Positions 11,185 through 57,543 of a stretch of 64,000 bases of DNA are shown here, one piece after another (the first letter of the stretch is position 1; each line of letters begins with the position of its first letter). The DNA lies in the NCBI GenBank assembly GCA_025800205.1, contig JAOXSD010000174.1:9544-73543 (forward strand), written 5' to 3'. The notes under the pieces are model-generated. The model had not been told where the DNA came from, did not search any database, and saw only the letters and a program-made list of their open reading frames with translations. This DNA is from Silicimonas sp. GTDB lineage: Bacteria; Pseudomonadota; Alphaproteobacteria; Rhodobacterales; Rhodobacteraceae. Position numbers and translations under genes: made by a program.

Positions 11185-12732
11185 TCAGAGATCGATTAGC
11201 ACCTGGCGTGCGGTCTCCAGATAGGCTGTCTGTGTTTCCGGTTTCATCCGGTCCCAGGTGCGATAAATCTGCCCGAGACGCGGATTGCCGCCCAGCCTGT
11301 CCCGGTTGCGCACCAGAAAATCCCAGTAAAGCGGGTTGAACGGGCAGGCGCCTTTGCCTGTTTTCTTCTGCACGTCAAAGGCACATCTGCCGCAATGATC
11401 GGACATCTTGTTGATGTAATTGCCGCTGGCCGCATAGGGTTTGGAGCCGAGGATGCCGCCATCGGCAAACTGGCTCATGCCGATCACATTGGGCGCTTCG
11501 ACCCATTCGAATGCATCGGCATAGACCGCCAGATACCATTCATGTACCTCGGCAGGGGCGACACCGGCCAGCATGGCGAAATTTCCGGTGACCATCAGCC
11601 GCTGGATGTGGTGGGCATAGGCCTCGTCCCGGGTTTGGCCGATGGCGGCGGCCAGACAGGCCATTCCGGTGTCCCCGGTCCAGTAGAACTCCGGCAGCGG
11701 GCGCGTGGCCTCGAGGTGGTTCATCTCGGTCAGGCCGGGCATGAAACGCCAGTAGATCCCCCGCACATATTCCCGCCATCCGATGATCTGGCGGATATAG
11801 CCCTCCGCCGCATTGAGCGGAGTGTGGCCGTCCAGATATGCGCGTTCGACCCTTTGGCACACTTCCAGCGGGTTCAGGAGGCCCGCGTTCATGTAGTGGG
11901 ACAGAACCGAGTGATAGAGGAAGTTCTCGCCCTCCAGCATCGCGTCCTGATAATCGCCGAAGCCGGGGAGCGCCTCGGTTGCGAAATGCTCCAGCGCGAC
12001 AAGGGCATCCTTGCGGGTGACGGCGAACCAGAAGGGGCGCAGGCGGCCGAAGTGGTCGCCAAACCGGTCGGCCACCAGATCGAGCACCGCCTCGGTCGTG
12101 GCATCCGGCGCGACCTGAAGGGGGCGCGGCATGAACAGATCGCCGCGCGCCGGTTTGCGGTTCTCCTGATCGAAATTCCACTGGCCACCCTCCGGGGCGT
12201 CGCCCTGCATCAAAAGCCCGGTCTTGCGCCGCATCTCGCGATAGAAATATTCCATCCGCAGGGCCTTGCGCCCCTCCGCCCAGGCTTCGAACATCCCGTG
12301 ACTGGCCAGAAACCGGTCGTCTTCGAGCATCTCGATGGCCACGCCTTCGGCCTCGGCCCAATCGCGGATCGCGGCCCTCAGCCGGTATTCCCCGGGCTCG
12401 GTCACCAGCAGGCTGTCGCAGCCGCAGGCCGCCATGGCCCGTGCAATCTCGCCCGGAATGGTGCCGCTGTTGCCCGGCGCGTCCAGCGTCACGTAACGCA
12501 GGTTCCAGCCCTCGCCGCGCAGGTCTTCGGCAAAGTGCCGCATGGCTGACAGGATAAAGGCGATCTTCTTCTGATGGTGGCGCACATAGGTCGCCTCACC
12601 GGCCACTTCGGCCATCAGGATCACGTCACGCCCCGGGTCGGCGGCTTTCAGGGCCGCCAGATCGGGGCTGAGCTGATCGCCCAGAATCAGAACCAGCCGG
12701 CGGGTGGCAAGGGATGGGGAGGTGTCGGTCAT
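11185..12732 (-). CDS. cryB: Fe-S bacterial cryptochrome/photolyase family protein (CryB / PhrB (6-4) photolyase type)
   Basis: 515 aa. RRLVLILGDQLSPD N-terminus and HHIQRLMVTGNF FAD-domain motif. Four Cys in the FeS-BCP pattern: C in GMACLAAAIGQ, plus CGRC-x12-C in DHCGRCAFDVQKKTGKGACPFN. Confidence 0.85.
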   Translation of the reverse strand: MTDTSPSLATRRLVLILGDQLSPDLAALKAADPGRDVILMAEVAGEATYVRHHQKKIAFILSAMRHFAEDLRGEGWNLRYVTLDAPGNSGTIPGEIARAMAACGCDSLLVTEPGEYRLRAAIRDWAEAEGVAIEMLEDDRFLASHGMFEAWAEGRKALRMEYFYREMRRKTGLLMQGDAPEGGQWNFDQENRKPARGDLFMPRPLQVAPDATTEAVLDLVADRFGDHFGRLRPFWFAVTRKDALVALEHFATEALPGFGDYQDAMLEGENFLYHSVLSHYMNAGLLNPLEVCQRVERAYLDGHTPLNAAEGYIRQIIGWREYVRGIYWRFMPGLTEMNHLEATRPLPEFYWTGDTGMACLAAAIGQTRDEAYAHHIQRLMVTGNFAMLAGVAPAEVHEWYLAVYADAFEWVEAPNVIGMSQFADGGILGSKPYAASGNYINKMSDHCGRCAFDVQKKTGKGACPFNPLYWDFLVRNRDRLGGNPRLGQIYRTWDRMKPETQTAYLETARQVLIDL

Positions 12733-12779
12733 GGAGCGGAGCTAGGGCGAAACGGCCCCGCGCCCAGCCCGGTTTCGGA

Positions 12780-13442
12780 TCAGGACAGGCGCGCCCGTCT
12801 GGCCTGCAAATCCTCCGGGTCGGTTTGCAAAAGGCGCGCGGCTTGTTCCGGATCACCGCCCGATTGCAGAAGGGCCGCGTCGATGCAGGCTGTTTCGATG
12901 TCGCGGGCGGCCTGGCGCAGGATCTCGTCCAGGGAGGCGTGCCCCAGTTGCGCGGCGAACGGGGCCATGGGATCAGGCATGCCACCGGCCCGCTCCGCCA
13001 ATGCCCGTTCCAGCCGCAGCTGCTCGGTCGCATATTGCCGCTCGACGGAGACCATCGGCCCCAGATCGCGGGCCAGCACGAGATGTTTCGCCTGGCCCTC
13101 GTTCACGAAGCGAAAGAACTTCAACAGGAGAGGCAGGCTCTCACCGGGGCCCGTGCGCAAATTGAGATGGCGCCAGCGGCCGTCCGACCCGGCCTGCGCC
13201 GCATTGTCCGACAGCAGCAATGGCAGCTTTCCGGCACTCTCCGAAAGAACTAGATCCTCCAGCCGCTGGCCGATCCAATTCGAGACCGCAGCCGGGTCCA
13301 GTTGCGATGTCACATGGAGCCCGAGAATGCGCCCGTCATCGGAGAGATTGAGGGTCAGGTCGGAACATTGCCGGATCACCAGGGCGGATTGCGGCAGGGT
13401 CAGCGATGTCAGCCCCTCATCTCCGATCCACCGACTGGTCAT
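12780..13442 (-). CDS. Truncated PpsR-like regulator (N-terminal PAS domain, Q-linker and C-terminal Fis-type HTH-like tail; central PAS1/PAS2 absent), 220 aa
   Basis: Aligns by eye with the window's own PpsR. NWIGQRLEDLVLSES matches QWYGEDFRSTLTVES. LVLARDLGPMVSVERQYATEQLRLERAL matches LLLGRDLRPVAALQQQLIESQRALERDY. LDEILRQAARDIETACIDAALLQSGGDPEQAARLL matches LKDIVAETTDEVEKICIKTAVDMTGNNRVAAAEML. The ATG at 13440-13442 is one nt from the stop of the upstream gene. The track start at 13571 would overlap that gene by 128 nt. Confidence 0.7.
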   Translation of the reverse strand: MTSRWIGDEGLTSLTLPQSALVIRQCSDLTLNLSDDGRILGLHVTSQLDPAAVSNWIGQRLEDLVLSESAGKLPLLLSDNAAQAGSDGRWRHLNLRTGPGESLPLLLKFFRFVNEGQAKHLVLARDLGPMVSVERQYATEQLRLERALAERAGGMPDPMAPFAAQLGHASLDEILRQAARDIETACIDAALLQSGGDPEQAARLLQTDPEDLQARRARLS

Positions 13443-13443
13443 C

Positions 13444-14214
13444 TCACAACCGCTTTTCTGCAGGCAGCGGGTCTTGTCGTTGCCGCAAATGGCGCGAGGC
13501 AGCGCCGGCATCGAGAAAAATCCGGTCGGCGCCCAGGAAGGCGTATTGCTCCAGCGGCGCGGTAAAGGCACCGCCGCCCAGAAGCACTTCCAGTTTCGAA
13601 TTCACGCTTTCCATGCGGGCATCCAGGATGAAATCGGCCATTCCAAGCAGGTTCCTATCATATCCCACGGAAATGCCCAATGCACAGGTCGCCGCAGTGG
13701 AGACCTCCTGCAGAACATCACGCGGATCCTGTCCGGTGATCATGGTCACATCCCAGCCTTCGGCGGTAAGCCGGTCGGCCAGCATTTGCGGTCCCAGCAG
13801 GTGATCCTCTTCGGCTGGCACGAACAATACGAAATTGCCGCAACCCCGCGCTCTGCCCGGTGCCGATCCGTCCAGTGTCGCGCTCAGCCGTCGCAGCAGG
13901 CCAAAGGCCTGGGCCACTTCGCTCGGAGAATGACGTCGTGTCTGGAGCGAGACCTGCAGGGTTTCGACAGAGCGCAACAACAGTGCCCTGCGCGCCACCG
14001 GGGTTCTGAGATCCTCGATCTGCGCGCGCGCGACCGCCATGTCGGAGCGCAGGGCCGCATTGAGAAAGTCGAGCTGTGCATCAAGCGAGACTTGCCTGGG
14101 TGCTCTGGCCTGATTTGCGTTGCTCAAGGCTGTTGCCAGGCTCGCGCGCTGAAGCATCAGCCCCTTGATCAGCCAGCCCTCGGTCTCGTTGCAGATTGAT
14201 GTCGCGCCGTCCAT
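13444..14214 (-). CDS. B12-binding-domain protein, AerR/PpaA-like (or AppA-SCHIC-like), second copy, 256 aa
   Basis: Helical N-terminal half, then a Rossmann-type cobalamin-binding domain with an ExHxxG motif: FVLFVPAEEDHLLGPQMLADRLTAEGWDV. The window's PpaA has VAVILRDCEQHTLGPIILANKLRLAGHTA. Shares RNL...LGG further on. Lies 63 nt downstream of the bchO stop. Confidence 0.7.
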   Translation of the reverse strand: MDGATSICNETEGWLIKGLMLQRASLATALSNANQARAPRQVSLDAQLDFLNAALRSDMAVARAQIEDLRTPVARRALLLRSVETLQVSLQTRRHSPSEVAQAFGLLRRLSATLDGSAPGRARGCGNFVLFVPAEEDHLLGPQMLADRLTAEGWDVTMITGQDPRDVLQEVSTAATCALGISVGYDRNLLGMADFILDARMESVNSKLEVLLGGGAFTAPLEQYAFLGADRIFLDAGAASRHLRQRQDPLPAEKRL

Positions 14215-14277
14215 CCCGTACCGAAGCTCCGTTCCATCCGTCTCGACAAAAAAAGCTTAGATGGGAATCTGGGTTCG

Positions 14278-15141
14278 TCAAGTCTGGCGTGATCCGGCAA
14301 GAAAGGCCCGCAGCGGGGTGGCGACGGTTTGCGGGGCTTCCTCCTGGGCCAGGTGACCCAGATCCGGCAGGACAATCAGGCGCGCCTGCGGGAGCCGGTC
14401 GGCGGCCTTGCGTCCGACCTCCGGCGGGACGGTTCGATCCCGTTCACCGACCAGCACCAGCGCCGACGCCTTCACCGCGGGCAGCGCGCGCAGAAGCGGC
14501 TTGAGATCCCAGGCGGCCATCATGGCCAGGGTGGCCGCCACGTGATCCCGGTCTTGCAAAAGGTGCAGGTAGCGCTGTTCCATGTCGGGCGTGATCTGTG
14601 ATCCGGTGGCGCGCAGCAATCTGCGGACCGTGCCCTTTCGTCCGGCCATGGTGCTGAACAGATCGGCTGTGAACGGCGCGCGGACCAGCCCGCGGGCAAG
14701 GGCGGGGAAGAGCCAGCCCGCCAGGCCTTCGAACCCGCTCAACGCCGGATTGATCAGGACGACGGCGGCGTTCCGTCCCCGCCGGCTCATCTCAAGCGCA
14801 ATTGCGGCCCCCGCTGAATGGCCGACGAGACCTGCAACGGGCCATCCTCCCGCTGTCAGCAAGGCGTCCAGATCTTCCGCCATGGCCGCCAGCCCGAACC
14901 GCCCCGGCCGTCCGGCCCGGGTGAAGCCCTGACCGGTCAGATCCGGAATGATCAGTGTGAACTCGTCTTTCAGGACATCCGCCAACCCGTGCCAGCTTTG
15001 CCCCGCGCCTCCCGCGCCGTGAAGCATCACCAGCCCTGGGCCGCGCCCCAGAACCTGCACATGCCAGCGGTGGCCTGCGGCCTCGATCTGGCGGCTGGCC
15101 TCGGCATGGGGCCAACCATGGGCCTGGGGCGGCCATTTCAC
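14278..15141 (-). CDS. bchO: BchO, alpha/beta-hydrolase-fold protein of the bchIDO operon
   Basis: (V)KWPPQAHGWPH...WHVQVLGRGPGLVMLHGAGGAGQSWHGL...LVGHSAGAAIAL. GTG start at 15139-15141 forms a GTGA overlap with the bchD stop. The 427-aa track ORF is an upstream extension over bchD. Confidence 0.85.
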   Translation of the reverse strand: MKWPPQAHGWPHAEASRQIEAAGHRWHVQVLGRGPGLVMLHGAGGAGQSWHGLADVLKDEFTLIIPDLTGQGFTRAGRPGRFGLAAMAEDLDALLTAGGWPVAGLVGHSAGAAIALEMSRRGRNAAVVLINPALSGFEGLAGWLFPALARGLVRAPFTADLFSTMAGRKGTVRRLLRATGSQITPDMEQRYLHLLQDRDHVAATLAMMAAWDLKPLLRALPAVKASALVLVGERDRTVPPEVGRKAADRLPQARLIVLPDLGHLAQEEAPQTVATPLRAFLAGSRQT

Positions 15142-16769
15142 ACCGCCCCCTCCAGCGCACGGGCAATCGCCCCGCTCATCCGGCGCGCATCCGCATGGGG
15201 CAGGGGCAGATAGGTGGCGGCCAGTGCGTCGGCAAGGCCGGGCAGGGTGGCTGAGGGGCGCGCGCCGGTGTCGATCACCATCGCGCTGACACGGTCGTCG
15301 GCCATCTGCCGGGCCACCCGGCTTGCATCCCCCATGGCATTGGCCCGGTTGCCGCTGCCATCGAGGGCCACATTGGCGCGGCCATCGGTCAACAGGATCA
15401 GCGCCGGGCTCATGCCGCGCCGCCGGGCGGCCTGTGCCTCGGCCCGCGCCGCCACCAGGCCCGCGGCCAGCGGTGTGCCGCCACCACCGGGGAGTGCGGT
15501 CAACCGCTTGCGGGTCTGGATCAGCGACCGGGTCGGGGGAAGCAACAGCGACGCTTCGCATCGGCGAAAGCCGATCAGGGCCACGTGGTCGCGCCGGGCA
15601 TAGGCCTGACCCAACAGGATCTCCACCGCGCCTTTCGCCTCCGCAAGCCGCGCCATGGCGGCCGATCCGGAGGCATCCACTGCAAAGATCAAAAGCCGGT
15701 CGGACCGGTGTTCAAACCGTCTGATCCGGAAATCCGAGGGTCGCAGCGCCAGCGCCATACCCTTCGGGCGCGGGCGCAACCCCTGCCAGGGCGCGGCGGC
15801 CCGCAGGGTGGCGATCACATCGAGCCGGGCGCCGCTGGTCAGCCGTCCGTTTTGTGCAGCAAGCGGTCGCCCGCGCCGGTTGTGGGCCTGTCTCGCCCCG
15901 CTGCCGGTGGTGGTCTGCGCCGCCCGTTGCCGCTGTCCCGCTTGCAACTGCGCCAGCAGATCCGCAGGCAGCGCCGCCTGCGCCGCGTCGATCAGCAATT
16001 CCTCGGGCGGTGAAGCGGTGTTCTGCGGTACGGGGGAATGGCTTTCTTCGGTCTCCGGCGGCGGCGCCTCGGGGGCCGGTGCCGTCCTTGCCCGATGGGC
16101 AAGGACCAGGGCGGCTGCACAGGTCAGATCCTCGGTCGCAACCCGCTCGCGACCGGCTTGCCCCGCCAGATGCCGCGCCGCCCTTGCGGCCATGAGCACG
16201 GGGCGCAGGGACGCAATCCCGAGACCGGATGCCGCTGCAGCGAGGTCCGTGATCTGTTCAGGGGTCAGCTCTGCTGGCGGGTCAGGTGCCCAGGTGCCGA
16301 CCTCGCCACTCTCGCGATGGGAGAGCCCGTCGAGATCGAGAAAGAACGCCAGCCGTTCGGTCAGCCCATGGGGCGGCAGTTCCTCGCAACTGGCCCCCTC
16401 GTCGAGCGCCACCACCCCATGCAGCCCCGCGTCGATCAGCCCGGTCAACCGGGCCGCAAATCCCGGCGTTGCGCGCTCCGCCATGGACAAGGCAAGCACA
16501 TCGGCGCGGGTGGCGATGCCGCCGGTTTCAACCAAACGTCCGGTGGCCAGCATCGCGGTCAGATCGCGCCCGCCGAACAGCGCCTCATCGCTCACATGGG
16601 GATGGATGTCGCCCAGCCGCAGATCAAGCGCGCGAAGGACCGCGATCACGCCCTGGCGCACCGGCCCGTGCCGGGCCCGGATCCAGATCCCTCCGAATCC
16701 TGCGGGATCGGCGGCAAACAGGCGCAGGACCAGCGCCACCCGGTCCCAGCCTTCGGGCGCCGCATTCAT
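15138..16769 (-). CDS. bchD: Mg-chelatase subunit D
   Basis: 543 aa. AAA-like N-terminal half, Pro/acidic linker (APAPEAPPPETEES) and a C-terminal VWA domain with the MIDAS motif FAVDASGS. Overlaps the bchI stop. Confidence 0.9.
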   Translation of the reverse strand: MNAAPEGWDRVALVLRLFAADPAGFGGIWIRARHGPVRQGVIAVLRALDLRLGDIHPHVSDEALFGGRDLTAMLATGRLVETGGIATRADVLALSMAERATPGFAARLTGLIDAGLHGVVALDEGASCEELPPHGLTERLAFFLDLDGLSHRESGEVGTWAPDPPAELTPEQITDLAAAASGLGIASLRPVLMAARAARHLAGQAGRERVATEDLTCAAALVLAHRARTAPAPEAPPPETEESHSPVPQNTASPPEELLIDAAQAALPADLLAQLQAGQRQRAAQTTTGSGARQAHNRRGRPLAAQNGRLTSGARLDVIATLRAAAPWQGLRPRPKGMALALRPSDFRIRRFEHRSDRLLIFAVDASGSAAMARLAEAKGAVEILLGQAYARRDHVALIGFRRCEASLLLPPTRSLIQTRKRLTALPGGGGTPLAAGLVAARAEAQAARRRGMSPALILLTDGRANVALDGSGNRANAMGDASRVARQMADDRVSAMVIDTGARPSATLPGLADALAATYLPLPHADARRMSGAIARALEGAV

Positions 16770-18518: not shown

Positions 18519-18536
18519 TGTAAACTAAACTGGACA
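18519..18536. promoter_or_regulatory. PpsR/CrtJ-type operator palindrome in the divergent crtA / crtI promoter region
   Basis: Perfect TGT-N12-ACA: TGTaaactaaactggACA, 16 nt upstream of the crtI ATG. Confidence 0.7.
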
Positions 18537-24030: not shown

Positions 24031-24071
24031 TGTCCATTCATAATTACATTTGGTGTATTTCACACATTACA
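24031..24071. promoter_or_regulatory. Tandem PpsR/CrtJ-type operators in the divergent crtD / crtE promoter region
   Basis: Two perfect TGT-N12-ACA palindromes 5 nt apart: TGTccattcataattACA (24031-24048) and TGTatttcacacattACA (24054-24071). Confidence 0.8.
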
Positions 24072-26070: not shown

Positions 26071-26114
26071 TGTCTATTTTAGTTGACAGTTTGATATGTG
26101 CTAATAGACTTACA
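26071..26114. promoter_or_regulatory. Tandem PpsR/CrtJ-type operators at the bchC promoter
   Basis: TGTctattttagttgACA (26071-26088) and TGTgctaatagacttACA (26097-26114), 8 nt apart, in an unusually AT-rich stretch just after the crtF stop. Confidence 0.8.
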
Positions 26115-51851: not shown

Positions 51852-55156
<3,305 letters not shown>

Positions 55157-55250: not shown

Positions 55251-56108
55251 GTGGCCCCGGCGGGGCCAGACATCCTCGGTGCTGTGACAGACCAGCGCGA
55301 GAGACAGATCATGACCGAAGCCTCATATTTCAAAGGCGCGGATAACGACGGGGTTCCGTCCCTATTGTGGGAAACGGTTGCCCGCGAGGCCCTTGAGGCC
55401 GTCGCCTCCAAGCCGCCGCCCGCGACCGGCGAAAAAGCCGATCCGGTCTTTGACCCGGCCTGGGTGCGCGAGATTGCCGATGCGGCCCATGACCCGCAAC
55501 TCACCCGGATCGGGCGGATCATCGATGGCTTGCTGGAACATGGCGTCGCTCCGCTGGCGATCATCGAGACCTATTGCGCCGAGGCCGCGCGCCTGCTGGG
55601 TGAGGATTGGCATTTCGACAGGCTCAGCTTTGCGCAGGTTTCCATTGGCACCGCGCGGTTGCAGGGGGTGGTGCGGGCGCTTTACGCCTCGCTTCCCCCT
55701 CAGGCGCTGGATCACGGCGCCCAGGTTGCGGTGATCCTGCGGGATTGCGAACAGCACACCCTGGGCCCGATCATCCTTGCCAACAAGCTGCGACTGGCCG
55801 GCCACACCGCCTGGCTGGCAGCTGGTTTCAGCGATGAGGAGATCCTCGAGCGCCTGAGCCGCCAAAGATTTGACATGGTTCTGTGCTCGGTCTCCCAGGA
55901 GCGAAATCTTGCAAATCTCGACAGCTTCCTGCAGACCGTGCGGGACCGCTGCGACAACCGGCTGGACATCGCGCTTGGCGGCAGTTTTCTCGACCGCTGC
56001 GGATCTCAGGCGGCAAGTGATACAGGAGCCGACATGGTGACGTCCGACATTCAGTTGATCCTGGACCGCCTGGCCGACCGAAGCACGAAGGCGCGGACCG
56101 CCACATGA
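55251..56108 (+). CDS. ppaA: Cobalamin-binding antirepressor PpaA / AerR
   Basis: B12-binding domain with an ExHxxG motif (VAVILRDCEQHTLGPIILANKLRLAGH). Lies immediately upstream of ppsR and divergent from bchF. GTG start at 55251; an ATG at 55311 (MTEASYF) is an alternative. Confidence 0.85.
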   Translation: MAPAGPDILGAVTDQRERQIMTEASYFKGADNDGVPSLLWETVAREALEAVASKPPPATGEKADPVFDPAWVREIADAAHDPQLTRIGRIIDGLLEHGVAPLAIIETYCAEAARLLGEDWHFDRLSFAQVSIGTARLQGVVRALYASLPPQALDHGAQVAVILRDCEQHTLGPIILANKLRLAGHTAWLAAGFSDEEILERLSRQRFDMVLCSVSQERNLANLDSFLQTVRDRCDNRLDIALGGSFLDRCGSQAASDTGADMVTSDIQLILDRLADRSTKARTAT

Positions 56109-56133
56109 GCAGGACAACAAGCGAGGGCGATGA

Positions 56134-57543
56134 ATGACCCAGCGAGGAACGGAATTCTGGACCGGCGGCGCGGTGCCGATCATCGGGCCCGAGGTGCTGA
56201 TCAGCATTGTCGGCAGCGCCTCTGATGTGGCGGTGGTGGTGAACCCCGAAGACGCCATCGTCTCGGTCATGGTCAATCCCAACGCCCATGGTCTGGAGGC
56301 CTTTGACCAGTGGTATGGCGAGGATTTCCGCAGCACGCTGACCGTCGAGAGCCTTGCCAAATTCGAGGAACGCGCCGCCCTATTGCGCGGCGGCGGCGAC
56401 AGCCGGGCGGCGCTTGAGCTGAACCACACCTTCCCGGGTGGCAGCGATGCGCCCATGCAATATTGGGTGTTTCGCATCGGCAGCGATCCGACGCTTCTGC
56501 TGTTGGGCCGTGATCTGCGCCCGGTGGCTGCCCTTCAGCAACAGCTGATCGAAAGCCAGCGCGCCCTTGAACGCGATTATGAAATTCAGCGCGAGGCGGA
56601 AACCCGACTTCGGGTGGCGCTCGAATCCGCCGATCAGGCAATGATCTTTGCTTCGCTCACCAGCGGCCGGATCCGCATGGTCAATCAGCGCGCCTGTGAC
56701 CTGTTGGGGGTGAAGCGCGATCTGGTGGTCGACAGCGCGCTCAGCAGCCATTTTACCGGCCTGCCGGGCGAGATCATCGACCGGTTGGTCCATGCCGGGT
56801 CCGAGGATCTGGGCAAGCCGGTCGAACTGACGGTCAAGCGCAACGCTCAGGCGGTGCTGGCCGCGCCAATCCTTTATCGCGCCTCAGGCGAGAAGATGCT
56901 GCTCTGCCGGCTCAACTTGCCCGATCAAAACCCCATGCGCCGCGATGGGCTTGGCGACCTCCTGACCGGCCATTATCAGAACATGAGCGACGGCATGCTC
57001 TTCGTGAATGGCTCGGGCACGATCAAGACCGCCAATGACGCGTTCCTGAGCCTCTGCCTGGCGCCCGATCTGAACCGGGTCACCAGTCGGCCATTGGCGG
57101 ATTTTCTTGAGCGCGGGACCCTGGATGTGCGGCTCGCCCTGGAGAATGCCGCACGCAACGGAGAAATACAGGGTTTTGCCACACGTCTTCGCACAGAGCA
57201 CGGCGAAACTCTGGCCGTGGAGCTGTTTGTCACGGCGGTGGATACGGGCGAGGGGGAGATGTATGCGGTCACCTTCCGCGACATGGCCCGCCGGGCGACC
57301 ACCACTCCGGGCGCTTCGGACGGCAGGGATCGCAAGGCGCAGAACGTGGCGGATCTGGTGGGCAGCACGCCCCTGAAGGACATCGTGGCCGAAACCACCG
57401 ACGAGGTGGAAAAGATCTGCATCAAGACGGCGGTGGACATGACCGGAAACAACCGGGTGGCCGCTGCCGAGATGCTCGGCCTCAGCCGCCAGAGCCTTTA
57501 TGTGAAACTGCGCAAATTCGGACTGCTCAAGAAGGACGGTTGA
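56134..57543 (+). CDS. ppsR: Photosynthesis gene repressor PpsR / CrtJ
   Basis: 469 aa. N-domain, Q-linker (QQQLIESQRALERDYEIQREAE), two PAS domains and a C-terminal Fis-type HTH (GNNRVAAAEMLGLSRQSLYVKLRKFGLL). Confidence 0.92.
   Translation: MTQRGTEFWTGGAVPIIGPEVLISIVGSASDVAVVVNPEDAIVSVMVNPNAHGLEAFDQWYGEDFRSTLTVESLAKFEERAALLRGGGDSRAALELNHTFPGGSDAPMQYWVFRIGSDPTLLLLGRDLRPVAALQQQLIESQRALERDYEIQREAETRLRVALESADQAMIFASLTSGRIRMVNQRACDLLGVKRDLVVDSALSSHFTGLPGEIIDRLVHAGSEDLGKPVELTVKRNAQAVLAAPILYRASGEKMLLCRLNLPDQNPMRRDGLGDLLTGHYQNMSDGMLFVNGSGTIKTANDAFLSLCLAPDLNRVTSRPLADFLERGTLDVRLALENAARNGEIQGFATRLRTEHGETLAVELFVTAVDTGEGEMYAVTFRDMARRATTTPGASDGRDRKAQNVADLVGSTPLKDIVAETTDEVEKICIKTAVDMTGNNRVAAAEMLGLSRQSLYVKLRKFGLLKKDG

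What the first reader, a model, noticed from the sequence alone, without database searches (positions are those of the whole stretch)
13444..14214. Stand-alone B12-binding-domain protein retaining the His of the ExHxxG motif, paralogous to PpaA/AerR
The C-terminal half carries FVLFVPAEEDHLLGPQMLADRLTAEGWDVTMITG. This lines up with the cobalamin-binding motif of the window's PpaA (VAVILRDCEQHTLGPIILANKLRLAGHTAWLAAG), and further matches follow (RNL, LGG). The N-terminal half is helical, like the B12-binding cap or four-helix bundle of AerR/AppA. The His is conserved. This favours AerR-like cobalamin ligation over heme binding as in the AppA SCHIC domain, but either is possible. Two B12-type sensors in one photosynthesis cluster implies either layered cobalamin/light sensing or subfunctionalisation.
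Basis: partly seen in the sequence, partly recalled or inferred. Interest (0 to 1): 0.6.

Follow-up and report, generated by a model that had tools for sequence, protein, structure and literature searches.

The report
Mobile AerR-like B12 sensor gene
This is a real gene for a vitamin-B12-type sensor protein related to the photosynthesis regulators PpaA/AerR; it belongs to a separate, unnamed branch that always travels with its own cut-down PpsR partner gene and also occurs on phages and other mobile DNA.

Summary
ORF 13444-14214 (-) encodes a 256-aa protein with an N-terminal helix, a four-helix cap and a Rossmann B12-binding domain. It has E136-x-H138-x-x-G141, S182 and G213-G214 at AerR spacing. 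AerR (7TE2) is the closest solved structure by sequence profile and by fold.

It is not a local duplicate of the window's PpaA. It belongs to a distinct clade of about 110 sequences, mostly from metagenomes. The clade is marked by an N-terminal Cys8/Trp14 motif, D186 and Y224.

In 42 of 42 loci with room downstream, a mini-PpsR gene follows directly, as here (TGA-g-ATG). PpaA-type genes instead sit beside full-length PpsR (32 of 41 loci). The pair lies at photosynthesis-cluster edges, between IS3 transposases, next to integrase-like genes, and inside a complete 61-kb provirus.

The His loop, the Gly and the short beta3-alpha3 loop favour cobalamin over SCHIC-type heme. However, this copie (and its 98% twin) has lost both aromatic cap residues (AerR W94/F101 become L90/P97). 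AppA has Leu at the first of these positions, so ligand choice in this copy is less certain.

An earlier follow-up in this scan, on the neighbouring mini-PpsR gene of this genome, had already noted the paired module and its prophage copies. My results agree with it. Function remains inferred.

The parts
13444..14214 (-). Gene for the 256-aa AerR/PpaA-like B12-binding-domain protein (stop codon 13444-13446)
   Evidence: ORF. Pfam PF02310 30.2 bits. Family profile vs AerR 7TE2 E 3.6e-27. AF2 pLDDT 84.1. Foldseek top hit 7TE2.
14116..14208 (-). N-terminal helix (residues 3-33) carrying the clade-specific Cys8 (14191-14193) and Trp14 (14173-14175)
   Evidence: Helix 3-33 in the AF2 model. Among clade members with a residue in these columns, Cys8 is present in 81 of 81 and Trp14 in 75 of 83. 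In 38 of 39 PpaA-type proteins these columns are gaps.
13870..14085 (-). Four-helix cap (residues 44-115). The cap positions are L90 (13945-13947) and P97 (13924-13926), where AerR has W94 and F101
   Evidence: Helices 44-55, 59-67, 72-91 and 97-115. Aligned to the AerR cap. The column is W in 107 of 110 clade members and 39 of 39 PpaA-type proteins, and the query is the only Leu. Role of W94/F101 and AppA L239/R246 from PMC9144470.
13474..13836 (-). Rossmann-type B12-binding domain (residues 127-247)
   Evidence: Strand/helix pattern. PF02310 matches residues 135-241.
13792..13809 (-). His loop E136-D137-H138-L139-L140-G141 (ExHxxG): candidate lower axial ligand His138 and the Gly that leaves room for the nucleotide tail
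   Evidence: H and G are invariant in 111 of 111 clade and 39 of 39 PpaA-type sequences. They align with AerR His145. AppA has Pro and Glu in these two columns.
13669..13671 (-). Ser182, equivalent to AerR Thr189 (H-bond to the dimethylbenzimidazole tail)
   Evidence: S in 108 of 111 clade members. Alignment to 7TE2. Role from PMC9144470. It lies 40 residues after G141, the same spacing as in AerR.
13573..13578 (-). Gly213-Gly214; Gly214 is equivalent to AerR Gly220
   Evidence: Invariant in the clade. Alignment. Role from PMC9144470.
12780..13442 (-). Partner gene: 220-aa mini-PpsR (N-terminal PAS domain, Q-linker, shortened HTH remnant with a conserved Cys). Its ATG lies one base after the B12 gene's TGA
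   Evidence: Sequence. TIGR02040 matches model positions 4-123 only, 51 bits. PpsR structures 4HH2/4HH3 E 0.003. A homologue lies directly downstream in 42 of 42 loci. C-terminal alignment.
11185..12732 (-). CryB-type (DPRP/FeS-BCP) photolyase/cryptochrome gene, 47 bases downstream of the mini-PpsR gene
   Evidence: PF04244 275.6 bits. It is not linked to the module in any other locus.
14278..15150 (-). bchO, upstream neighbour, 63 bases from the B12 gene. It ends the crtA-bchI-bchD-bchO run. Its start is approximate
   Evidence: TIGR03056 271.9 bits.
55251..56108 (+). Canonical PpaA of the cluster (the true start is probably downstream of the GTG)
   Evidence: BLASTP. It falls in the PpaA-type group, outside the query's clade.
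56134..57543 (+). Full-length PpsR
   Evidence: TIGR02040 349 bits, above the cut-off of 275.4.

Best explanation
The gene encodes a small sensor of the PpaA/AerR type. A four-helix cap and a Rossmann domain would hold a corrinoid in the base-off/His-on mode, with His138 as lower ligand. Gly141, Ser182 and Gly214 would accommodate the nucleotide tail. The protein most likely works as the input half of a two-protein module. It is translated together with the 220-aa mini-PpsR and probably binds that protein's Q-linker and N-terminal PAS region, as AppA binds PpsR and as modelled for AerR with CrtJ. The state of the cofactor (light-generated hydroxocobalamin, or B12 supply) would then decide whether the mini-PpsR is free or sequestered. 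The invariant Cys8 may add a redox input. The mini-PpsR keeps the dimerisation parts of PpsR but has a shortened recognition helix without basic residues. Its likely output is therefore protein-protein interference with full-length PpsR or PpaA, not direct operator binding. In this genome the pair sits at the end of the crtA-bchIDO run and could be co-transcribed with it. The whole pair is a mobile unit that was added to this cluster, not an old resident. Shown here: the fold, the motifs, the clade, the strict gene pairing and the mobile contexts. Inferred: cobalamin binding, the interaction with the mini-PpsR, and every step after that.
For: Fold and family: the profile hits AerR at E 3.6e-27, AppA at 6e-16 and CarH at 7e-11. 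The top Foldseek hit is AerR 7TE2, and all other top hits are two-domain B12 modules. Ligand motifs: H138, G141, G213 and G214 are invariant and S182 is present in 108 of 111. The spacing HxxG-40-SxGxD-26-GG is fixed across the family and matches AerR without the SCHIC insertion. Distinct clade: 107-111 members with support 0.959 (FastTree) and 83.9 (SH-aLRT), and none of 39 PpaA-type proteins fall inside it. Pairing: a mini-PpsR gene lies directly downstream in 42 of 42 loci, the same gene order as ppaA-ppsR (32 of 41 PpaA-type loci). Mobility: IS3 transposases flank the copies in L009-L012. Integrase-like neighbours occur in L065 and L071. Phage replication and packaging genes lie on both sides in a provirus rated 100% complete. 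The module was not found downstream of bchO in same-genus G003 and G004. It was not found in about 860 other sampled genomes. The gene looks maintained: dN/dS 0.25 against a 98% identical copy from another sample, though this rests on only 11 codon differences. The interaction model comes from the AppA-PpsR2 structure and the AerR-CrtJ model described in PMC9144470.
Against: No binding data exist for any member. This copy lacks both aromatic cap residues (L90 and P97), whereas the Trp is present in 107 of 110 clade members and all PpaA-type proteins. It also sits on a very long branch of about 1.2 substitutions per site. It may therefore bind a different ligand or none. Pfam scores it just below the gathering threshold, and the cap is not recognised by PF02607. 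The foldseek TM-scores are modest at 0.4-0.5, probably because of domain orientation in an apo model. Most module-bearing contigs show no photosynthesis genes nearby. It is therefore unproven that the target is always PpsR. Co-transcription with bchO rests only on short gaps and the lack of a predicted terminator.
Confidence: 0.6

Rival explanations
1. In this genome the protein has shifted to heme, or another non-corrinoid tetrapyrrole, and works like a BLUF-less AppA SCHIC domain that senses heme or redox state and controls the mini-PpsR.
For: At the cap Trp position the query has Leu, as AppA does (L239), and it lacks the second aromatic residue (P97; AppA R246). The SCHIC domain is a clear homologue, E 6e-16. 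A CryB-type gene lies two genes away, and CryB binds the AppA SCHIC domain in R. sphaeroides (PMC3401432). The own genome has no BLUF protein, hence no AppA.
Against: The three structural features used to explain heme selectivity in SCHIC are all absent here. The His is at the canonical position, not shifted by two. Gly rather than Glu follows three residues later. The beta3-alpha3 loop has AerR length, whereas AppA shows four extra residues in the alignment (PMC3760249, PMC9144470). There is no Cys-rich C-terminal region. The cryB linkage is unique to this genome.
Confidence: 0.12
2. The protein no longer uses a tetrapyrrole at all. It is a cofactor-free adaptor, or a thiol-based redox sensor acting through Cys8, that merely keeps the B12-domain fold. 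This is what was proposed for the minimised PpaA/AerR-like HP1 of Rhodospirillum rubrum.
For: Loss of the cap residues and the long branch of this copy. Cys8 is invariant in the clade, and a conserved Cys sits in the partner's HTH remnant (LERQC-type motif). There is precedent for a PpaA/AerR-like protein thought unable to bind cobalamin or heme (PMC10734443).
Against: H138, G141, S182 and G213-G214, which make sense only as a corrinoid site, are strictly conserved in the clade and retained here. The few non-synonymous differences from the 98% twin avoid them.
Confidence: 0.2
3. The pair is phage or mobile-element cargo whose real job is unrelated to photosynthesis (for example control of lysogeny or an anti-phage function). 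Its position beside bchO would then be an accident of insertion.
For: The pair occurs inside a complete provirus between a ParB-methyltransferase gene and terS. It occurs next to integrase-like genes and IS3 elements. Most loci show no photosynthesis genes within the stretch held.
Against: Both proteins derive from the photosynthesis-specific PpaA/PpsR pair. At least five independent loci, this window included, abut photosynthesis genes at two different cluster edges. There is no match to PADLOC defence models or PHROGs. The hosts of the phage copies are unknown and may be phototrophs.
Confidence: 0.08

Closest known systems
AerR (Rhodobacter capsulatus, PDB 7TE2) / PpaA (Cereibacter sphaeroides): cobalamin-binding co-regulators of CrtJ/PpsR
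   Same: Two-domain architecture of a four-helix cap plus a Rossmann B12 domain. ExHxxG with the His and Gly in the same columns. S/T and GG tail contacts at the same spacing. An N-terminal extension of about 40 residues with a long helix, as in the long AerR isoform. The gene lies directly upstream of a PpsR-type gene.
   Different: It forms a separate clade. The N-terminal extension carries an invariant Cys and Trp, not the His10 upper ligand. D186, Y224 and F/W226 are clade-specific. The classic LGxxWxxD cap motif occurs in only 4 of 111 clade members against 97 of the 111 sequences outside the clade. The partner is a 220-aa mini-PpsR without PAS1, PAS2 or an intact recognition helix. The pair is mobile and phage-borne. 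This copy also lacks the W94/F101 cap.
AppA SCHIC domain (Cereibacter sphaeroides, PDB 4HEH, 4HH0, 4HH3)
   Same: Homologous cap plus Rossmann fold (E 6e-16). It partners with a PpsR-type protein. It has Leu at the cap Trp position (L90 vs L239). A CryB gene lies nearby, and CryB is a known SCHIC interactor.
   Different: No BLUF domain and no Cys-rich tail. The His is not shifted. Gly stands where AppA has Glu289. There is no extended beta3-alpha3 loop.
CarH/LitR B12 photoreceptor repressors (PDB 5C8D, 3WHP) and photocobilin proteins (8J2W-8J2Y)
   Same: The same two-domain B12 module, with hits at E 7e-11 (CarH) and 4e-16 (photocobilins) by sequence profile and about 1e-7 to 1e-8 by fold.
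   Different: No fused MerR DNA-binding domain, GGDEF domain or bilin domain. No Wx9EH motif. The output goes through a separate partner protein.
HP1 (Rru_A0625) of Rhodospirillum rubrum, a minimised PpaA/AerR-like regulator (PMC10734443)
   Same: A divergent, small PpaA/AerR relative in a photosynthesis cluster whose ligand is in doubt.
   Different: The authors describe HP1 as having no recognisable cobalamin motifs. The present protein keeps all of them except the cap aromatics. I did not compare the two sequences directly.

Membership tests
PpaA/AerR cobalamin-binding co-regulators | Four-helix cap plus Rossmann B12-binding fold | tested here: met
   Profile vs 7TE2 E 3.6e-27 over both domains. 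AF2 secondary structure. Foldseek top hit 7TE2, E 1.4e-8, TM 0.41/0.50.
PpaA/AerR cobalamin-binding co-regulators | Lower-ligand His in [D/E]xHxxG, aligned with AerR His145 | tested here: met
   E136-D-H138-L-L-G141. H and G are 100% conserved in the clade and in PpaA-type proteins.
PpaA/AerR cobalamin-binding co-regulators | Nucleotide-tail contacts (AerR Thr189/Ser and Gly220) | tested here: met
   S182 and G214 align with them at the same spacing (roles from PMC9144470).
PpaA/AerR cobalamin-binding co-regulators | Aromatic cap over the upper ligand (AerR Trp94 and Phe101) | tested here: not met
   The query has L90 and P97. The Trp is present in 107 of 110 clade members and 39 of 39 PpaA-type proteins.
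PpaA/AerR cobalamin-binding co-regulators | Upper-ligand His in the N-terminal extension (His10 of long AerR) | tested here: not met
   There is no His in residues 1-40. The extension instead carries the invariant Cys8 and Trp14.
PpaA/AerR cobalamin-binding co-regulators | Gene directly upstream of full-length ppsR/crtJ | tested here: not met
   The downstream gene is a 220-aa mini-PpsR. The same holds in 42 of 42 loci of the clade, against full-length PpsR in 32 of 41 PpaA-type loci.
PpaA/AerR cobalamin-binding co-regulators | Falls inside the PpaA/AerR group in a tree | tested here: inconclusive
   It lies in a separate supported clade (0.959; SH-aLRT 83.9). Whether that clade is sister to, or nested among, PpaA-type proteins is unresolved (parent node support 0.24 and 26).
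PpaA/AerR cobalamin-binding co-regulators | Binds cobalamin and modulates PpsR/CrtJ activity | not testable with these tools
   Needs purified protein and genetics.
AppA SCHIC (heme instead of cobalamin) | His shifted two residues from the canonical position, and Glu in place of the HxxG Gly | tested here: not met
   In the profile alignment AppA has Pro and Glu where the family has H and G. The query has the canonical H138 and G141 (PMC3760249).
AppA SCHIC (heme instead of cobalamin) | Extended loop between beta3 and alpha3 that blocks the corrin site | tested here: not met
   AppA shows four inserted residues here in the alignment. The query has the fixed family and AerR spacing (PMC9144470).
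AppA SCHIC (heme instead of cobalamin) | N-terminal BLUF domain and Cys-rich C-terminus | tested here: not met
   Pfam finds only PF02310. No BLUF domain occurs anywhere in the own genome, which is 93.9% complete. The C-terminal tail has no Cys.
AppA SCHIC (heme instead of cobalamin) | Non-aromatic cap residues (L239, R246) | tested here: met
   L90 and P97 in the query only, not in the rest of its clade.
CarH/LitR photoreceptor repressors | Fused MerR-type DNA-binding domain and Wx9EH cap motif | tested here: not met
   No MerR domain. The cap Trp is replaced, and no EH follows.
Pfam PF02310 B12-binding | Score at or above the gathering threshold | tested here: inconclusive
   30.2 bits against a cut-off of 32.1, E 4.4e-7. 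The source databases do list PF02310 for the 98% twin and other relatives, marked 'weak' for the twin.

The most novel reading that the evidence does not exclude
The clade is a new kind of B12 sensor in which the invariant N-terminal Cys8 takes the place of AerR His10. It would act either as a thiolate upper ligand to cobalt after photolysis or as a redox switch that pairs with the conserved Cys of the mini-PpsR. The two-gene unit would be a mobile, phage-transmissible 'regulator hijacker': when it lands in a phototroph, it reprograms the host PpsR regulon by forming mixed complexes with host PpsR or PpaA.
Probability: 0.15. Interest if true: 0.85.

Novelty: new variant of a known kind. Interest (0 to 1): 0.6.

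Why it matters
PpaA/AerR and PpsR/CrtJ are the central light, oxygen and B12 switch of purple-bacterial photosynthesis. They are normally treated as fixed residents of the photosynthesis gene cluster. This work shows a sister lineage of both proteins, shrunk to a sensor plus a PAS/Q-linker stub. That lineage moves between genomes on IS elements, integrative elements and temperate phages, and sometimes docks at cluster edges.

If the pair does act on host PpsR, it would be a way for mobile DNA, including phages, to retune host phototrophy. It would also offer a minimal two-protein system for dissecting how a B12 domain talks to the PpsR Q-linker. The invariant Cys in place of the AerR upper-ligand His is a directly testable lead on corrinoid photochemistry.

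For this genome, it means the cluster has two PpsR-type circuits of different origin. The added one has an unusual, cap-less ligand pocket.

Tried and rejected
1. The word-indexed protein search found only the 98% twin. With the family alignment it returned 10 proteins, three of them from this family (the twin, P0024 and P0159). It is too insensitive for this family.

3. My first pattern scan of genome contigs used a mistyped pattern, with N runs of 125 and 77 instead of 121 and 78. Its six hits are out-of-register matches to a mistyped pattern; I inspected two (L049, L050) and both lie in unrelated genes. I can say nothing about the family's presence among the 185,579 named species genomes. 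A second mistyped version was caught on the window itself before the fixed-gap notation worked.

4. The genome search over 60 relatives, 400 genomes of the class and 400 of the phylum found only PpaA-type matches that lack the N-terminal region.

5. Metagenome loci could not be reached as records, so the longer contigs could not be searched for ppsR or puf genes.

7. A conserved link to cryB was rejected: no other locus has it.

8. A known defence system or known phage family was rejected: no PADLOC or PHROG hit.

9. An exact PpsR box (TGT-N12-ACA) in front of the gene was rejected. None lies in 14215-14277. The nearest on this side is at 18519-18536, between crtA and crtI.

10. Literature searches found no description of this pair.
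Full report
**The observation**

ORF 13444-14214 on the minus strand is a 256-aa open frame with an ATG start. The PpaA peptide it was compared with maps to 55725-55769.

- BLASTP between the two proteins gives 29% identity over 111 residues, E 1e-7.
- Pfam B12-binding (PF02310) matches residues 135-241 at 30.2 bits, just under its 32.1-bit threshold. NCBIfam has no model for the protein.
- Searched alone against PDB sequences, the protein finds a photocobilin-type B12 protein (8J2Y, E 0.0018) and AerR (7TE2, E 0.0028).

**The family**

An exhaustive HMMER search of 1.84 billion representative proteins found 606 relatives at E <= 0.001 and 61 at E <= 1e-10. Most are 250-270 aa and align end to end. 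The nearest is a 98% identical copy from another sample, and the next is only 38% identical.

A 53-member alignment has invariant H138, G141, D186, R200 and G213-G214, and nearly invariant C8. A profile of that alignment hits AerR 7TE2 at E 3.6e-27 over profile positions 43-240. It hits the AppA SCHIC domain at about 6e-16, photocobilin proteins at about 5e-16, and CarH at about 7e-11.

An AlphaFold2 model built with 36 sequences has mean pLDDT 84.1. It shows a long N-terminal helix (3-33), four helices (44-115) and an alpha/beta domain (127-247). Foldseek ranks AerR first (E 1.4e-8). Every other top hit is a cap-plus-Rossmann B12 module. TM-scores are only 0.4-0.5, which I attribute to domain orientation in a ligand-free model.

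**Cobalamin or heme**

The papers on the SCHIC and AerR structures give explicit discriminators (PMC3760249; PMC9144470). In SCHIC:

- a Glu replaces the Gly of HxxG and blocks the nucleotide-tail pocket;
- an eight-residue beta3-alpha3 loop intrudes on the corrin site;
- the aromatic cap (AerR W94/F101) is replaced by L239/R246.

In the profile alignment AppA has Pro and Glu where this family has His and Gly, and it has four extra residues around the SxG loop. The query has the canonical H138 and G141. It also has the fixed family spacing HxxG-40-SxGxD-26-GG, which is the AerR spacing. S182 and G214 align with the AerR tail contacts Thr189 and Gly220. Three of the four discriminators therefore point to cobalamin.

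The fourth does not. The cap Trp column is W in 107 of 110 clade members and in 39 of 39 PpaA-type proteins, and the query is the single Leu. The second cap position is F/Y/L/I/V in the clade and F in PpaA-type proteins, but Pro in the query. The 98% twin shares L90 and P97.

The query also sits on a branch of about 1.2 substitutions per site. It is not decaying, however. Against the twin there are 6 synonymous and 5 non-synonymous codon differences, dN/dS 0.25, and none falls in the motifs. This is a small sample.

I conclude that corrinoid binding is likely for the family (about 80%) and somewhat less certain for this copy (about 60-65%).

**Relation to PpaA/AerR**

The dataset had 222 sequences: family representatives, members recovered from loci, 39 PpaA-type proteins from sampled genomes including the window's own, and MerR-B12 outgroups. 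The query falls in a clade of 111 (FastTree support 0.959), or 107 plus a four-member sister group (IQ-TREE SH-aLRT 83.9). No PpaA-type protein lies inside the clade. The clade's position relative to the PpaA-type groups is unresolved.

Characters specific to the clade:

| Character | This clade | Outside the clade |
|---|---|---|
| N-terminal Cys8 | 81 of 81 with a residue there | column gapped in 38 of 39 PpaA-type |
| Trp14 | 75 of 83 | column gapped in 38 of 39 PpaA-type |
| D186 | 111 of 111 | mixed in the 39 PpaA-type (E, D, A, V) |
| Y224 | 107 of 111 | A or V in most of the 39 PpaA-type |
| F/W226 | 111 of 111 | mixed in the 39 PpaA-type |
| LGxxWxxD cap motif | 4 of 111 | 97 of all 111 outside sequences |

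The N-terminal extension is of similar length and helical character to that of the long AerR isoform. In long AerR, His10 becomes the upper cobalt ligand after light exposure. Here there is no His in residues 1-40, but there is an invariant Cys.

**The partner gene**

The sensor's TGA is followed by one base and then the ATG of a 220-aa gene. That gene matches only the first 123 positions of the PpsR model TIGR02040 (51 bits) and the N-domain/Q-linker part of the PpsR structures.

I scanned the metagenome and viral collections with a degenerate DNA pattern for the fixed motif spacing, after verifying the pattern on the window. The scans returned 65 metagenome loci and 3 viral loci (68 in all), of which 43 were confirmed by HMM, including all 3 viral ones. 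In all 42 loci with sequence downstream, a mini-PpsR homologue follows at once on the same strand. The loci found through protein P0159 show the same arrangement.

By contrast, 32 of 41 PpaA-type loci have a full-length PpsR next door, even with only 1.5 kb of flank available. The window itself has that canonical pair at 55251-57543.

The mini-PpsR family keeps a conserved Cys in an LERQC-type motif, the position of the redox-active Cys of PpsR/CrtJ. It ends in a short acidic stretch where PpsR has its basic recognition helix. I checked that only by inspecting the alignment.

**Where the pair lives**

In the window the pair lies at the left edge of the photosynthesis cluster, after crtA-bchI-bchD-bchO and before a CryB-type photolyase gene. 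The gaps are 63 and 47 bases and no convincing terminator is predicted. Elsewhere it was found in these settings:

- after the puhABC-acsF-puhE-hemA side of a cluster (L009, L058, L084/L087);
- bracketed by IS3 transposases (L009-L012);
- next to integrase-like genes (L065, L071);
- in three IMG/VR contigs.

One of the viral contigs is a 61-kb provirus rated 100% complete. There the pair sits between the replication block (Sak4, SSB, Cas4-type exonuclease, helicase, primase, ParB-methyltransferase) and terS, terL and portal.

Carrier contigs range from 42% to 74% G+C. Most show no photosynthesis gene within the stretch held. Two same-genus genomes that have bchD-bchO lack the pair, and cryB, in the stretch examined downstream of bchO: about 7.5 kb in G003 and about 3 kb in G004, where the contig ends. 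About 860 sampled genomes of the family, class and phylum yielded only PpaA-type matches. The pair is therefore a rare, mobile unit that was added to this cluster.

**Mechanism**

The best-supported reading is a two-protein sensor and adaptor derived from the PpaA-PpsR pair. The sensor would hold a corrinoid on His138. Cofactor state, and possibly the Cys8 thiol, would govern binding to the Q-linker/N-PAS part of the mini-PpsR. This is by analogy with the AppA-PpsR2 crystal structure and the AerR-CrtJ model. The mini-PpsR keeps the dimerisation parts of PpsR but lacks a credible recognition helix. It would act by forming mixed complexes with full-length PpsR or by competing for PpaA. All of this is inference.

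The rivals are:

- a SCHIC-like shift to heme in this copy, supported only by the lost cap and by the nearby cryB, whose product binds SCHIC in R. sphaeroides (PMC3401432);
- a cofactor-free or purely thiol-based adaptor, with the R. rubrum HP1 protein as precedent (PMC10734443);
- a mobile-element function unrelated to photosynthesis.

The own genome has no BLUF domain, hence no AppA. There are no PADLOC or PHROG matches.

**Comparison with what is known, and novelty**

The protein works most like AerR/PpaA but fails three family criteria. Its partner is not full-length PpsR. It has no upper-ligand His. In this copy it has no aromatic cap. It also forms its own clade.

Public records call relatives only 'cobalamin B12-binding domain-containing protein'. 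Full-text searches found no description of the pair. An earlier follow-up in this scan, on the neighbouring mini-PpsR gene of the same genome, had already noted the pairing and the prophage copies. My independent tests agree with it.

I rate this a new variant of a known kind, with interest 0.6. The mobile and phage-borne nature of a PpaA/PpsR-derived pair, and the Cys-for-His N-terminus, would interest specialists. Function is untested.

**Limits**

- One collection scan was wasted on a mistyped pattern.
- Model coordinates could not be inspected, so the position of Cys8 relative to His138 is unknown.
- Host identities of most carrier contigs are unknown.

Noticed in passing
L121/L123/L130 (IMGVR_UViG_3300048592_001388, 61 kb), also L120 and L122: The sensor plus mini-PpsR pair sits inside a provirus rated 100% complete by CheckV. 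It lies between a ParB-like DNA methyltransferase gene (with primase, helicase, Cas4-type exonuclease, SSB and Sak4 further on) and terS, terL, portal and protease. Only 3 of 2.9 million IMG/VR contigs carry it.
   Followed up: yes
L009-L012 (contigs encoding P0159): A copy of the pair is bracketed by IS3-family transposase genes (HTH_Tnp_1 plus rve). In L009 it lies next to hemA-puhE-acsF-puhC-puhB-puhA. The same unit appears on several contigs with different surroundings, which suggests a composite-transposon-like unit.
   Followed up: partly
window 11185-12732 (-): A CryB-type FeS photolyase/cryptochrome gene (PF04244, 275.6 bits) lies 47 bases downstream of the mini-PpsR gene, at the very edge of the photosynthesis cluster. 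CryB binds the AppA SCHIC domain in R. sphaeroides (PMC3401432). This linkage is unique to this genome among the loci examined.
   Followed up: partly
window 12780-13442 (-) and the mini-PpsR alignment: The mini-PpsR family keeps a conserved Cys in an LERQC-type motif, equivalent to the redox Cys of PpsR/CrtJ, but ends in a short acidic stretch instead of the basic recognition helix. Each protein of the pair thus has one highly conserved Cys, which hints at a thiol-based link between them.
   Followed up: partly
window, whole: TGT-N12-ACA (PpsR-box pattern) occurs 12 times against 4.35 expected. Paired sites lie at 24031-24071 and 26071-26114, two further sites at 55066-55083 and 55139-55156, and a single site at 18519-18536 between crtA and crtI. 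None lies directly upstream of the sensor gene.
   Followed up: no
own genome G000 (371 contigs, 93.9% complete): No BLUF domain was found anywhere, so there is no AppA-type regulator. Only two proteins in the genome match the AerR-like profile: this one and PpaA.
   Followed up: yes
G001 and G002 (same genus): Two same-genus genomes gave no DNA match at all to the bchD-bchO-cryB region, and G001 had no AerR-like protein match. The genus may mix phototrophic and non-phototrophic species.
   Followed up: no
window 12574-14199 (+): A 541-aa open frame runs antisense across both genes of the pair. It has no homology support and is most likely a chance frame in 65% G+C DNA.
   Followed up: no
L003, L004, L005, L008 (relatives G003, G017, G004, G002): Relatives carry further stand-alone B12-binding proteins of about 280-300 aa with a classic LGEWW-type cap. 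No PpsR gene was found within the 1.5-kb flanks. This would be a third group of free-standing B12 proteins in this bacterial family.
   Followed up: no
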